Source of the DNA: Naegleria gruberi | Taxonomy: Eukaryota | Length of the DNA stretch: 2,755 nucleotides | Strand: one strand, 5' to 3' | NCBI GenBank assembly: GCA_000004985.1 | Contig: GG739247.1 | Shown: one piece after another, positions 1 to 2,755 of the stretch | Layout of the letters: every line of letters starts with the position of its first letter | Position numbering within the stretch: position 1 is the stretch's first letter | Notes under the pieces: model-generated | Database searches by the model: none | The model's input: only the letters and a program-made list of their open reading frames with translations | What the model was told of the DNA's origin: nothing | Position numbers and translations under genes: made by a program

Positions 1-100
1 CATAATCTTCGGGAAATGAATTTGTGGTGGAGGCTATCAAAAGACAACTCTTTCCGACGGCGCCATCACCAACAACTACCAATTTCAAGCTATTGTCCAT
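1..100 (-). CDS. Rho/Rac-family small GTPase, N-terminal fragment (5' end of the gene; the CDS continues past the left edge of the window)
   Basis: The reverse complement of 1..100 reads ATG(100-98) GAC AAT AGC TTG AAA TTG GTA GTT GTT GGT GAT GGC GCC GTC GGA AAG AGT TGT CTT TTG ATA GCC TCC ACC ACA AAT TCA TTT CCC GAA GAT TAT g. This translates to [33 protein letters not shown]... It contains the P-loop/G1 box GDGAVGKS. It also shows the Rho-subfamily pattern [10 protein letters not shown][ST]CLLI..T.N.FP.(E/D)Y known from Rac/Cdc42 (established knowledge). The ATG has A at -3 and G at +4. Local GC (ggcgccgtcgg...) is visibly higher than in the flanking intergenic DNA. There is no in-frame stop before the window edge. 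At 33 codons it is below the ORF-track cut-off, which explains its absence from the track. Confidence 0.8.
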
Positions 101-704
101 TATTATGTACACGTTGATGTGAGTTTGTTATTTTTTTTTGATTTTGTTTTCAAAGTACCATTGAACAAGGAACTCTTACAAAAATTTGATTAATGATTAC
201 TTTATTCAGATTTAAGATCATAATTAAAATTCAAAAACAACTTTATTAGTAGGATAGTTTGTAAACTTCAATTTCTTCAACTTTGAATTTCAACAATCTA
301 TAAAAAAAATAGTCAACATTCTTCTACTCTAGGAGGACATGATGATTTTCGGAGTGGTTTTACATCATGAAACTACCAAACTTTCACAGCATCATCTCAA
401 CATCATCTAAATAGTAGTAATAGTAATAATTGTTTTTGGTGGATTATCATCATCATTTTGGAATTTATTTTTCATGATGGAAAATCACACGTTGATGTTT
501 AATCATCCGATCATTCACCTACCATCATCAATGTTGTTTTACATTAAAATAATAATAGTATTTGTGGAAATTAATTTTTAGCAATATAATTTTGGAGTCC
601 TTCTGAGTTCCAAATTTCTTCCTTTGTGGTAACAATTAATCAAAACTCAAACAAAATACCTTTAACTCTTCATCATCATCATATTGCAAAATAATTCCAC
701 AATC
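101..704. promoter_or_regulatory. Divergent (bidirectional) intergenic/promoter region between the start codons of the minus-strand GTPase gene and the plus-strand F-box/DUF4116 gene
   Basis: About 600 bp have no ORF of meaningful length on either strand. The region is very AT-rich and has homopolymer runs (T9 at 132-140, A8 at 302-309). The two flanking CDSs point away from each other. The TATA-like element and the CAT/ATG motif cluster listed separately lie inside it. Confidence 0.55.
299..310 (+). promoter_or_regulatory. TATA-like element TATAAAAAAAAT
   Basis: The exact string tataaaaaaaat is at 299-310. It lies ~395 nt upstream of the plus-strand ATG (705) and ~200 nt upstream of the minus-strand ATG (100). 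In an AT-rich intergenic region such a match can arise by chance, and its distance to either ATG is long for compact protist promoters. Confidence 0.2.
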
Positions 705-711
705 ATGATGG
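338..711. repeat. Cluster of short CAT/ATG trinucleotide tracts (CATCAT / ATGATG motifs), running up to and including the start-codon doublet
   Basis: Seen directly in the sequence: catgatgat 338-346; catcat 363-368; CATCATCT twice at 390-397 and 401-408; (ATC)3AT at 446-456; catgatg 473-479; atcatc 502-507; catcatcaATG 523-533; (CAT)4 at 671-682; catgatg 704-710. That is roughly ten occurrences of one hexamer family in ~370 bp, far more than an AT-rich background would give. Confidence 0.6.
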
Positions 712-2264
712 ATCAATTAAATATTGATATTCTCGGGTATGTGTTTGAATTTCTTCCGAGAGGAACAGACAGGAAGAGAATTGCATTGGTCAACAAGACT
801 TTTCACCATTCTAGATATGTGTTGGAGAAACGTGAAATGACTCGGATGTGGCATGATGAGAATAATTGTCTACAATATCACCCTCTCATGGAAGATGTGG
901 TGAGTGAAGAAGAATTGGAGAAGAAACAAGAAGAATTACAAATTGCCATACCTTTCCATTTGAAATTGTTTGTAACTGTCTTGACGAATGGTAGACAGCC
1001 ATGGTCTAATACTGTTGTGCATGTTAGTAATTTGTTGGGACCTGTCGAATCTTGGTTTTTGGACACACATAATGGTTTGGACACACAGAATGGTTATGCA
1101 ATCTTGGGAGTTGATACCCAATTATCTAACATATTAACATTGAGCAGAGATGGGAGGATTAGAGTGAATGGAGACACGGTTGACTTTTTTGAGTTTGTAA
1201 CGATGGTAAATCGTCCATTTAATCCAGAATTTTACAATTTTGAAAAGTTTAAAGAAAGAGTGTACTTCCCCTTCTCAATGACCAAGGAATATTATAGTAC
1301 GTTGCCAGACAAGTACAAATTTGTGGACAAGTTGACCATGCATGCTATTGAATTGGATCCAAAATGTTATGCATATGTTCCTGATTATATCAAGATGATG
1401 AGACATATTGCCAAGAAGGTATTCATTAGAAATCCATCCTTGGGCACATTAATTCCAAAAGAACTTTTGGAAGATACAGATTTTGTTATGGATGTTTACA
1501 AATCATCACAATCAATTCTGTTTTATGCTTCTCCAATAGGAAAATGGTGGAGTGATAGGGTTTTTATGATTGAGGCATTGAAGAGTGATGTATGTTTAAT
1601 AAGAAACTGTTCTGAGGAAATACGGACTGATAGAGAAATTATTGACATGATTATTGACATAGATGCAGCAAGTTCTTTTCAATATATTGGAAAATTCAAG
1701 GAAGATGAAGATATTGTGAAAAAGGCACTATTTAAATCAAACTTCACGATTCTACATTATATCAATAGTGATTTTCTGCTTAATAATAGAGAACTAGTTC
1801 TCACAATATTGAAAAGTAACGGAAAGTATATTAACGAAATGCCAGAGGCAATCCAAAAGGATAGAGAATGCTTTTTCCTAGCTGCAAGAACGCCTTATTT
1901 TACATCCAAAGTTCAATCTCTTTACAAAATAATAGAGAGTGACAGAGAGGATTTCAAATCAATTCTGCAATTTAATCCGGACCTTTTGGAGAAGACCATT
2001 TTCAAAGACGACAGAGAGCTTCTTAAAGAGGCTCTTTCACACTGTGGATTTTGTCTCAGATTTGCAAGTGAAGAATTCAAGGCAGATAAGGAACTTGTTT
2101 TGACAGCCGTAACAAAAAATGGATCTGCCCTTATGTATGCCTCTCCAAAACTCAAAGATTGTGAAGAGATTGTCTTGGCAGCTGTAACGAATGATGGAAA
2201 AGCAATTCGATTTGCTTCAAAGAGATTCTCGAATCAGAAAACTCTAAATTGTAATATTTATTAA
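705..2264 (+). CDS. F-box-like / DUF4116-repeat protein (519 aa from the first ATG). It is a candidate SCF E3 ubiquitin-ligase substrate-recognition subunit.
   Basis: Track ORF 684..2264 is one uninterrupted 1.58-kb frame, and the three antisense ORFs inside it are low-complexity. The track start at 684 is TTG, and the frame is open from 666. The first ATG is at 705 (ATGATGG, with A at -3), so I take it as the start for a eukaryotic gene. The stop is TAA at 2262-2264. The N-terminus QLNIDILGYVFEFLPRGTDRKRIALVNKTF fits the F-box pattern L[PN].[DE]IL..[IV]F..L....D...[IL]..V.K.[WF]. The C-terminal half has ~12 tandem ~25-aa units of the form [DE]-[ILV]-V-L-x-A-[VL]-x-+-[ND]-G-x-[AS]-L-+-[YF]-A-S-x-x-L-K-x-D-+-E. 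One example is ADKELVLTAVTKNGSALMYASPKLKDCEEIVLAAVTNDGKAIRFASKRF. This matches my recollection of the Pfam DUF4116 repeat (not HMM-verified). Confidence 0.85.
   Translation: MMDQLNIDILGYVFEFLPRGTDRKRIALVNKTFHHSRYVLEKREMTRMWHDENNCLQYHPLMEDVVSEEELEKKQEELQIAIPFHLKLFVTVLTNGRQPWSNTVVHVSNLLGPVESWFLDTHNGLDTQNGYAILGVDTQLSNILTLSRDGRIRVNGDTVDFFEFVTMVNRPFNPEFYNFEKFKERVYFPFSMTKEYYSTLPDKYKFVDKLTMHAIELDPKCYAYVPDYIKMMRHIAKKVFIRNPSLGTLIPKELLEDTDFVMDVYKSSQSILFYASPIGKWWSDRVFMIEALKSDVCLIRNCSEEIRTDREIIDMIIDIDAASSFQYIGKFKEDEDIVKKALFKSNFTILHYINSDFLLNNRELVLTILKSNGKYINEMPEAIQKDRECFFLAARTPYFTSKVQSLYKIIESDREDFKSILQFNPDLLEKTIFKDDRELLKEALSHCGFCLRFASEEFKADKELVLTAVTKNGSALMYASPKLKDCEEIVLAAVTNDGKAIRFASKRFSNQKTLNCNIY
714..830 (+). 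other. F-box-like motif (protein residues ~11-49 in track numbering)
   Basis: The residues are LNIDILGYVFEFLPRGTDRKRIALVNKTFHHSRYVLEK. The hydrophobic spacing and the IL..VF..L / LVNK.F positions match the F-box consensus LP.EIL..IF..L....DL....VCK.W. P is replaced by N at the LP position, which makes this a degenerate F-box-like motif of the kind common in protists. Confidence 0.5.
1059..1094 (+). repeat. In-frame 18-bp tandem duplication inside the CDS
   Basis: ttggacacacaTaatggt at 1059-1076 is followed directly by ttggacacacaGaatggt at 1077-1094, 17/18 identical. The pair encodes LDTHNG-LDTQNG (residues 126-137). A degenerate partial third copy (gaatcttggttt) precedes it. Confidence 0.8.
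1305..2243 (+). repeat. Protein-level tandem array of ~12 degenerate ~25-27-residue repeats (DUF4116-like), residues ~208-520
   Basis: The anchor pair x-E-[ILV] recurs at residues 292, 318, 343, 370, 395, 422, 445, 470 and 495, i.e. a period of 23-27 aa. The units are PDKYKFVDKLTMHAIELDPKCYAYV / PDYIKMM...KELLE / DTDFVMDVYKSSQSILFYASPIGKWWS / DRVFMIEALKSDVCLIRNCSEEIRT / DREIIDMIIDIDAASSFQYIGKFKEDE / DIVKKALFKSNFTILHYINSDFLLNNRE / LVLTILKSNGKYINEMPEAIQKDRE / CFFLAARTPYFTSKVQSLYKIIESDRE / DFKSILQFNPDLLEKTIFKDDRE / LLKEALSHCGFCLRFASEEFKADKE / LVLTAVTKNGSALMYASPKLKDCEE / IVLAAVTNDGKAIRFASKRFSNQKT. The last two units share 22 of the first 30 nucleotides. Confidence 0.6.
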
Positions 2265-2742: not shown

Positions 2743-2755
2743 GGGTTTGGGTTTG
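2743..2755. repeat. GGGTTT GGGTTT G at the right edge of the window (possible start of a G/T-rich tandem tract)
   Basis: gggtttgggtttg is at 2743-2755. Only two full units are visible before the window ends. Confidence 0.4.

What the first reader, a model, noticed from the sequence alone, without database searches (positions are those of the whole stretch)
705..2264. F-box-like N-terminus fused to an array of DUF4116-type repeats: a candidate SCF substrate receptor built on an uncharacterised repeat
Seen in sequence: a 519-aa intronless CDS. Its first ~45 residues fit the F-box hydrophobic pattern, and its last ~310 residues are ~12 tandem 25-27-aa units. The unit consensus [DE][ILV]VL.A[VL]..[ND]G.[AS]L+[YF]AS..LK.D+E is what I recall for Pfam DUF4116, a domain of unknown function. 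Established knowledge: F-box proteins dock onto Skp1/Cul1 and use a C-terminal repeat module (LRR, WD40, Kelch) to select substrates. Inference: the DUF4116 repeats would be the substrate-binding solenoid. That would give this orphan repeat a concrete functional hypothesis, namely protein-protein recognition within the ubiquitin-proteasome system.
Basis: partly seen in the sequence, partly recalled or inferred. Interest (0 to 1): 0.6.

Follow-up and report, generated by a model that had tools for sequence, protein, structure and literature searches.

The report
FBXO3-like F-box protein with DUF4116 repeats

The parts
705..2264 (+). Complete intronless CDS, 519 aa plus TAA stop. It corresponds to N. 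gruberi NAEGRDRAFT_82374 / UniProt D2W673 with 44 extra N-terminal codons.
   Evidence: ORF listing and sequence. P0070 is identical to the ORF from Met45 and lies on a contig of exactly 2755 bp, the length of the window.
705..836 (+). The 44 codons missing from the public gene models, which start at Met45 (nt 837). They encode most of the F-box.
   Evidence: Codon-usage log-likelihood is 0.43 bits per codon in frame, against 0.49±0.13 for the downstream CDS and at most 0.06 for intergenic windows. In a leave-one-out test against the other family members, residues 1-44 score 32.5 bits, E 6e-9, with a shuffle maximum of 7.9. They also align to N. lovaniensis P0022.
711..866 (+). F-box, residues 3-54, forming three helices (7-16, 21-27, 31-54). 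The LP motif reads LN (L5-N6).
882..1319 (+). SUKH-1 (Smi1/Knr4-type) α/β domain, residues ~60-205.
1058..1093 (+). 18-nt in-frame tandem duplication (LDTHNG|LDTQNG, residues 119-130) in a loop of the SUKH domain.
   Evidence: Repeat family D7, 94% identity. The AF2 pLDDT dips to 65 in residues 121-130. Paralogue P0067 has a single copy.
1326..2240 (+). DUF4116 array, residues 208-512, made of 12 units of 23-27 aa. It is followed by a 7-residue tail.
   Evidence: Pfam PF13475 scores 161-168 bits in 7 stretches. The periodicity is 25 residues.
2016..2240 (+). The three canonical DUF4116 units (units 10-12, residues 438-512).
   Evidence: Each scores about 47-48 bits against the unit HMM. The best Pfam stretch covers residues 461-508.

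Best explanation
The gene encodes a member of a small Naegleria-type family of F-box proteins. Its N-terminal ~205 residues form an FBXO3-like module, a three-helix F-box followed directly by a SUKH-1 domain. Its C-terminal ~305 residues are 12 DUF4116 repeats, which the literature predicts to be helical. The most likely function is substrate receptor of an SCF (Skp1-Cul1-Rbx1) ubiquitin ligase. In this model the F-box docks onto Skp1, and the SUKH domain and/or the DUF4116 array capture the proteins to be ubiquitinated. The DUF4116 array occupies the position that the substrate-binding ApaG domain holds in FBXO3. Shown here: the identity of the three domains, from sequence profiles and predicted fold; the family; and the corrected start codon. 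Inferred: Skp1 binding, ligase assembly, and which module binds substrate.
Against: The window protein alone fails Pfam's F-box threshold (12.2-15.5 bits against 20.5). It gives no SMI1_KNR4 hit on its own. The LP dipeptide at the start of canonical F-boxes reads LN here and LA in the closest relatives P0045 and P0047. From my own knowledge, LP-to-AA mutations are commonly used to abolish Skp1 binding. All three N. gruberi public models start at Met45 and omit the F-box. Foldseek E-values against the PDB were not significant, the best being 0.19. No Skp1 interaction, substrate or transcript data exist. The fold of this protein's DUF4116 part was not obtained, because the single-sequence AF2 run gave pLDDT 38.
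Confidence: 0.6

Rival explanations
1. Degenerate or pseudo F-box. The N-terminal three-helix bundle keeps the fold but no longer binds Skp1. The protein would then act as a ligase-independent scaffold or adaptor through SUKH and DUF4116, as the yeast SUKH protein Smi1/Knr4 acts as an interaction hub.
For: The Pfam F-box score is sub-threshold. The LP motif reads LN, and LA in the closest relatives. Smi1/Knr4 is described as a hub protein without an F-box.
Against: The hydrophobic core positions and the V-x-K-x-F motif are retained, and they align with TIR1's VCKSW. The predicted fold superposes on Skp1-bound F-boxes at 1.7 Å. The region is conserved across three Naegleria species at a level similar to the rest of the module.
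Confidence: 0.2
2. SCF receptor in which the SUKH domain is the substrate-binding element. The DUF4116 array would then do something else, such as localisation, oligomerisation or regulation. This is a variant of the best explanation rather than an exclusive alternative.
For: Zhang et al. 2011 proposed SUKH as the substrate-recruiting domain of FBXO3-type proteins. Some family members are short and lack a clear DUF4116 array, namely P0052 (246 aa) and P0046 (452 aa).
Against: Bacterial F-box+DUF4116 proteins and the U-box+DUF4116 protein have no SUKH domain, so in them DUF4116 is the only candidate binding module. In FBXO3 the domain C-terminal to SUKH is the one reported as needed for FBXL2 binding. 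The short members may be truncated gene models or contig fragments.
Confidence: 0.25
3. The public gene model is right. Translation starts at Met45, the upstream 44 codons are untranslated leader, and the protein is SUKH + DUF4116 with no F-box.
For: Three N. gruberi models (P0001, P0070, P0067) all start at the equivalent Met.
Against: In-frame codon usage for 705-836 is typical of CDS and beyond any intergenic window. Fifty-seven codons are open upstream of Met45, whereas the chance of 44 open codons is about 0.03. Residues 1-44 are homologous to the modelled N-termini of N. fowleri and N. lovaniensis proteins at E 6e-9. AF2 folds them confidently.
Confidence: 0.07

Closest known systems
FBXO3 class of F-box proteins (human FBXO3, Arabidopsis SKIP16, Chlamydomonas CEHC1)
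   Different: FBXO3-class proteins end in an ApaG/DUF525 β-sandwich, whereas this protein ends in 12 DUF4116 repeats and has no ApaG hit. No sequence-level affinity was detected, because the family profile does not retrieve the FBXO3 chain at E<=10. The FBXO3 lineage was described as having no lineage-specific expansions in eukaryotes. Here there are at least 4 paralogue groups in N. gruberi, 3 in N. fowleri and 6 in N. lovaniensis.
Repeat-type SCF substrate receptors (FBXL such as Skp2, TIR1 and COI1 with LRR; FBXW such as FBXW7 and β-TrCP with WD40; Kelch F-box proteins)
   Same: The logic of the architecture is the same, an F-box for Skp1 plus a C-terminal repeat array for substrates. The family's F-box profile aligns best to TIR1, including the shared D-R and V-C-K-x-W/F features.
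   Different: The repeat type is DUF4116, with about 25 aa per unit and no solved structure. An extra globular SUKH domain is intercalated.
Bacterial F-box effectors, including the F-box+DUF4116 proteins found here (P0033, L003, L004) and Legionella AnkB (F-box + ankyrin)
   Different: They are bacterial (prfC neighbour; MAG titles), they lack a SUKH domain, and their F-boxes are unrelated in detail. From general knowledge they are presumably secreted effectors that hijack the host SCF, which was not tested here.
Yeast Smi1/Knr4 and bacterial SUKH immunity proteins (YobK and others)
   Different: They have no F-box and no DUF4116. The bacterial members act as toxin-immunity proteins.

Membership tests
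F-box domain (Pfam PF00646 / PF12937) | The protein itself scores above the curated Pfam gathering threshold | tested here: not met
   12.2 bits (E 0.18) for the whole protein and 15.5 bits (E 0.016) for residues 1-60, against a cut-off of 20.5.
F-box domain (Pfam PF00646 / PF12937) | Homology to sequences that do pass the curated threshold (transitive, family-level membership) | tested here: met
   Residues 1-44 score 32.5 bits, E 6e-9, against a profile of the other members, with a shuffle maximum of 7.9. P0044, P0055 and P0058 pass PF00646. In the family-profile PDB search, 10 of 12 hits are F-boxes, the best being TIR1 at E 0.0011.
F-box domain (Pfam PF00646 / PF12937) | Three-helix fold superposable on Skp1-bound F-boxes | tested here: met
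F-box domain (Pfam PF00646 / PF12937) | Conserved L-P start and hydrophobic Skp1-contact positions | tested here: inconclusive
   L5 is present but Pro is replaced by Asn. I9, L10, V13, F14, L17, V29 and F33 are retained. Several paralogues keep LP.
F-box domain (Pfam PF00646 / PF12937) | Physical binding to Skp1 and assembly into SCF | not testable with these tools
   No complex prediction or experiment was available. I did not verify that Naegleria has Skp1. I assume it from general knowledge that Skp1 is conserved among eukaryotes.
SUKH-1 / SMI1_KNR4 (PF09346) | Sequence match above the curated threshold | tested here: inconclusive
   The window protein alone gives no hit. Twelve of 17 relatives hit at E<=0.1, and P0052 (32.1 bits) and P0059 (26.0 bits) exceed the cut-off of 25.4. 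The family profile hits the SUKH structure 2pag at E 0.092.
SUKH-1 / SMI1_KNR4 (PF09346) | SUKH α/β fold | tested here: met
FBXO3 / SKIP16 class | F-box immediately followed by a SUKH-1 domain | tested here: met
FBXO3 / SKIP16 class | C-terminal ApaG / DUF525 domain | tested here: not met
   There is no ApaG hit even at E<=10, and the C-terminus is DUF4116. The protein is therefore not filed as an FBXO3-class member, only as FBXO3-like in its N-terminal half.
FBXO3 / SKIP16 class | Specific sequence relationship or orthology to FBXO3 | tested here: not met
   The family profile does not retrieve the FBXO3 chain among PDB sequences at E<=10. No phylogeny was run.
DUF4116 (PF13475) | Sequence match above the curated threshold, in tandem copies | tested here: met
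   161.3 bits against a cut-off of 24.9, in 7 stretches of the two-unit, 49-position model. There are 12 units of 23-27 aa with a periodicity of 25.
DUF4116 (PF13475) | α-solenoid fold, known only as a prediction from the literature | not tested
The single-sequence model is unusable at pLDDT 38. PMC8078820 reports a trRosetta α-solenoid for the family. No solved structure matches the repeat profile.

The most novel reading that the evidence does not exclude
DUF4116 may be a general target-recognition repeat of ubiquitin ligases that has been recruited several times. Naegleria would use it in an expanded F-box/SUKH family, bacteria that probably live inside protists would use it in F-box+DUF4116 effectors (DUF4116 proteins also occur in Legionella and Chlamydiaceae), and it is fused to a U-box elsewhere. 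Host and intracellular bacteria might then use the same repeat to aim ubiquitination at overlapping targets, through mimicry or gene transfer.
Probability: 0.25. Interest if true: 0.55.

Novelty: new variant of a known kind. Interest (0 to 1): 0.35.

Why it matters
DUF4116 is a widespread orphan repeat found in protists, bacteria and sequences attributed to viruses. It has no solved structure, and only four papers in the searched library even mention it. Finding it three times behind E3 modules turns "unknown function" into a specific hypothesis that can be tested: it may be a substrate- or target-binding array of ubiquitin ligases. The three cases are a Naegleria F-box/SUKH family, bacterial F-boxes and a U-box. 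The work also corrects a gene model. The public N. gruberi entries start at Met45 and hide the F-box, which is why they are named only "predicted protein". Finally, it documents a lineage-specific expansion of an F-box+SUKH architecture that was previously described as not expanding in eukaryotes. None of this overturns current understanding, because F-box proteins are known for combining with many C-terminal modules.

Tried and rejected
1. Single-sequence AF2 of the full protein gave pLDDT 37.8, so nothing was read from it. That used one of the two structure jobs, so the DUF4116 part could not be modelled with an alignment.
2. A word-index homologue search with residues 1-215 found nothing, not even the identical P0001. 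This is a tool limitation, and the exhaustive HMMER search solved it.
4. The afdb50 fold library was unavailable.
5. The contig look-up for P0001 returned no record, so the two N. gruberi copies could not be compared at DNA level.
6. The DUF4116 repeat profile against PDB sequences gave only noise, a ferredoxin domain and stathmin.
7. I tested the idea that the U-box+DUF4116 protein P0005 is from a giant virus. There is no relative in IMG/VR. Its neighbours are another DUF4116 protein and an LDLa-domain ORF, so its origin remains open.
8. Literature searches for Naegleria Skp1/SCF or any study of this family found nothing specific. One search on 'SKP1-FBXO3' was unproductive.
9. Rfam and tRNA scans of the window gave only a snoR19 match far below threshold and no tRNA.
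10. I considered and rejected that the N-terminus is some other three-helix module. All meaningful profile and fold matches for residues 1-54 are F-boxes.

Full report
**What is in the window.** The window is AT-rich eukaryotic DNA, with 27-30% GC in the flanks and 31-39% in the gene. The ORF from ATG 705 to TAA 2262-2264 on the + strand encodes 519 aa. The protein from Met45 onward is identical to N. gruberi NAEGRDRAFT_82374 (UniProt D2W673, "predicted protein", 475 aa). That record lies on a contig of exactly 2,755 bp, so the window is one entire small scaffold. A copy differing by one residue (P0001, NAEGRDRAFT_75957) lies on a 195-kb scaffold. A paralogue in the same 90%-identity cluster (P0067) lies on a third scaffold.

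**Check of the observation.** Pfam DUF4116 matches at 161.3 bits (E 3.6e-48, 7 stretches, cut-off 24.9). Residues 206-519 show a 25-residue self-similarity period about 6 SD above the best lag of shuffled sequences. Residues 1-205 show none. Only units 10-12 are canonical. Pfam F-box aligns to residues 3-35 but scores only 12.2 bits (E 0.18), or 15.5 bits (E 0.016) for residues 1-60 alone. Both are below the gathering score of 20.5. The F-box call could not be accepted on this sequence alone.

**The start codon.** All three N. gruberi public models begin at the Met equivalent to Met45, which removes exactly the putative F-box. Four lines of evidence show that the upstream 44 codons are coding.
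- The frame is open for 57 codons upstream of Met45. The chance of 44 open codons at this composition is about 0.03.
- In-frame codon-usage log-likelihood is 0.43 bits per codon. That lies inside the range of the downstream CDS (0.49±0.13) and above every intergenic window (maximum 0.06). The other two frames score 0.12 and -0.04.
- Residues 8-117 align to the N-terminus of an N. lovaniensis protein at E 2e-5.
- In a leave-one-out test, residues 1-44 score 32.5 bits (E 6e-9) against a profile of the other family members. Two thousand shuffles reach at most 7.9 bits.

**The family.** An exhaustive HMMER search of 1.84 billion representatives used a profile of the N-terminal module (window residues 1-215 plus N. 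lovaniensis P0022). It found 18 proteins. Every named one is from N. gruberi, N. fowleri or N. lovaniensis, and the rest are from unnamed metagenome contigs. Scanned individually with Pfam, most end in DUF4116 arrays. Three pass the F-box threshold: P0044 at 27.8 bits (also F-box-like at 24.8), P0055 at 23.2 and P0058 at 20.9. Several more are just below it.

**The missed domain.** Unexpectedly, 12 of the 17 relatives hit SMI1_KNR4 (SUKH-1, PF09346) in the stretch between the F-box and the repeats. P0052 (32.1 bits) and P0059 (26.0 bits) are above the cut-off of 25.4. UniRef already names individual members "F-box domain-containing", "DUF4116 domain-containing" or "Knr4/Smi1-like domain-containing". 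The window's own entry is only "Predicted protein".

**Profile and fold evidence for the N-terminal module.** A 19-sequence alignment of the module (A2) shows the signature LPxE(L/I)xxxIxxFL...R...(V/L)(C/S)xxF, followed by PFxLREFLKxTNGR...W...H...W...G.
- Searched as a profile against all PDB sequences, 10 of the 12 matches are F-box proteins aligned at their F-box: TIR1 (E 0.0011), FBXO42 (0.0083), KDM2B, FBXL3, COI1, KDM2A, FBXW7, FBXW11 and FBXL5. One further match is the SUKH structure 2pag.
- AF2 with this alignment gives a confident model of window residues 1-215 (pLDDT 88.7, pTM 0.84). It has helices 7-16, 21-27 and 31-54, then an α/β domain.
- Foldseek against the PDB was not significant, although FBXO3, Knr4 and YobK led the list.
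- PMC3113570 lists 2prv, 2icg, 3d5p and 2pag as SUKH structures. It describes FBXO3 and SKIP16 as F-box + SUKH-1 + DUF525.

**Comparison with the known.** The N-terminal half is FBXO3-like in architecture and predicted fold. The protein is not a member of the FBXO3 class as defined by F-box + SUKH + ApaG. No ApaG domain is present, and the family profile shows no specific sequence affinity to FBXO3. The DUF4116 array sits where ApaG sits. In FBXO3, ApaG is reported as essential for binding the substrate FBXL2. SKIP16 was isolated as an interactor of the Skp1 homologue ASK2. Zhang et al. 2011 proposed SUKH itself as a substrate-recruiting domain. They also stated that the eukaryotic FBXO3 lineage shows no lineage-specific expansions, and their paper does not mention Naegleria. 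This family has at least 4, 3 and 6 paralogue groups in N. gruberi, N. fowleri and N. lovaniensis respectively, counted at 50% clustering.

**Independent fusions of DUF4116 to E3 modules.**
- P0033 has an F-box at 33.7 bits followed by DUF4116. It sits beside a prfC equivalog at 643 bits, so it is bacterial.
- A scan of bacterial genomes found a 70%-identical orthologue in another MAG (L003, F-box 32.3 bits).
- The same scan found an alphaproteobacterial MAG protein with an LPDDLLVGIF motif, F-box-like at a sub-threshold 16.5 bits, plus DUF4116 (L004).
- It also found DUF4116-only proteins in Legionella brunensis, a Chlamydiaceae MAG and a Pseudomonadota MAG.
- P0005 combines six DUF4116 stretches with a C-terminal U-box at 74 bits. 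Its origin is undetermined.

None of these proteins has a SUKH domain, so in them DUF4116 is the only candidate target-binding part.

**Mechanism and confidence.** The most likely function is an SCF substrate receptor. The F-box would bind Skp1, and SUKH and/or the DUF4116 array would recruit substrates (confidence 0.6). Domain identities are shown. Skp1 binding and substrate recruitment are inferred. The main caveats are as follows.
- The Pfam F-box score of this particular sequence is sub-threshold.
- The LP motif is replaced by LN here, and by LA in the closest relatives.
- No structure was obtained for the DUF4116 part. The only support for a solenoid is a published trRosetta model, and no solved structure matches the repeat.
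- No expression or interaction data exist.

The rivals are a pseudo-F-box scaffold (0.2), SUKH rather than DUF4116 as the binding module (0.25, nested within the main model), and the Met45 start (0.07).

**Novelty and verdict.** This is a new variant of a known kind: an F-box/SUKH protein whose third module is an uncharacterised repeat. It is not a surprise to a specialist, because F-box proteins combine with many C-terminal domains, and automatic annotation already shows F-box and DUF4116 labels on paralogues. The value lies in four things: a concrete, testable role for DUF4116; the missed SUKH domain and FBXO3 likeness; the gene-model correction; and the parallel bacterial fusions. Interest is 0.35.

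Noticed in passing
window 1-100 (- strand): This is the 5' end of a divergently oriented Ras-superfamily small GTPase, running off the scaffold end. Its sequence is [33 protein letters not shown], Rho/Rac-like by eye, and Pfam Ras scores 31.6 bits. A 604-bp intergenic region with 27% GC separates it from the F-box gene.
   Followed up: partly
window 1058-1093: An 18-nt in-frame tandem duplication (94% identical) encodes LDTHNG|LDTQNG at residues 119-130. It lies in a low-confidence loop of the SUKH domain. Paralogue P0067 has only one copy, so the duplication is recent.
   Followed up: partly
window 837-839 (Met45); P0001, P0070, P0067: All three N. gruberi public gene models of this gene and its near-copies start at the same internal Met and lack the F-box. 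The same truncation may affect other members of the family in that annotation.
   Followed up: partly
P0056 (N. fowleri FDP41_005577, 766 aa): This family member has the F-box/SUKH-like N-terminus and DUF4116 units, followed by a complete DEAD-box helicase (DEAD 81.5 bits, Helicase_C 74.8 bits). It is either a real fusion or two merged gene models.
   Followed up: no
L001 582-1628; L003 1727-2992; L004 400-1884: These are bacterial F-box + DUF4116 proteins. One lies next to prfC, and the others are in an unclassified MAG and an alphaproteobacterial MAG. DUF4116-only proteins occur in Legionella brunensis (L005), a Chlamydiaceae MAG (L007) and a 1194-aa Pseudomonadota protein with 20 stretches (L006). 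They may be effectors aimed at host ubiquitination.
   Followed up: partly
L002 524-1744 and 1973-2497: A DUF4116 + U-box protein (P0005) sits directly upstream of a second DUF4116 protein, with an LDL-receptor class A domain ORF on the other side. The organism is unknown, and no relative was found in IMG/VR.
   Followed up: partly
window 303-460 (- strand): A weak Rfam match to the C/D-box snoRNA snoR19 scores 30.5 bits against a gathering score of 60, E 0.7. It is most likely chance in AT-rich intergenic DNA.
   Followed up: no
window 2743-2755: The scaffold ends in GGGTTTGGGTTTG, two copies of a GGGTTT unit. This is too short to interpret.
   Followed up: no
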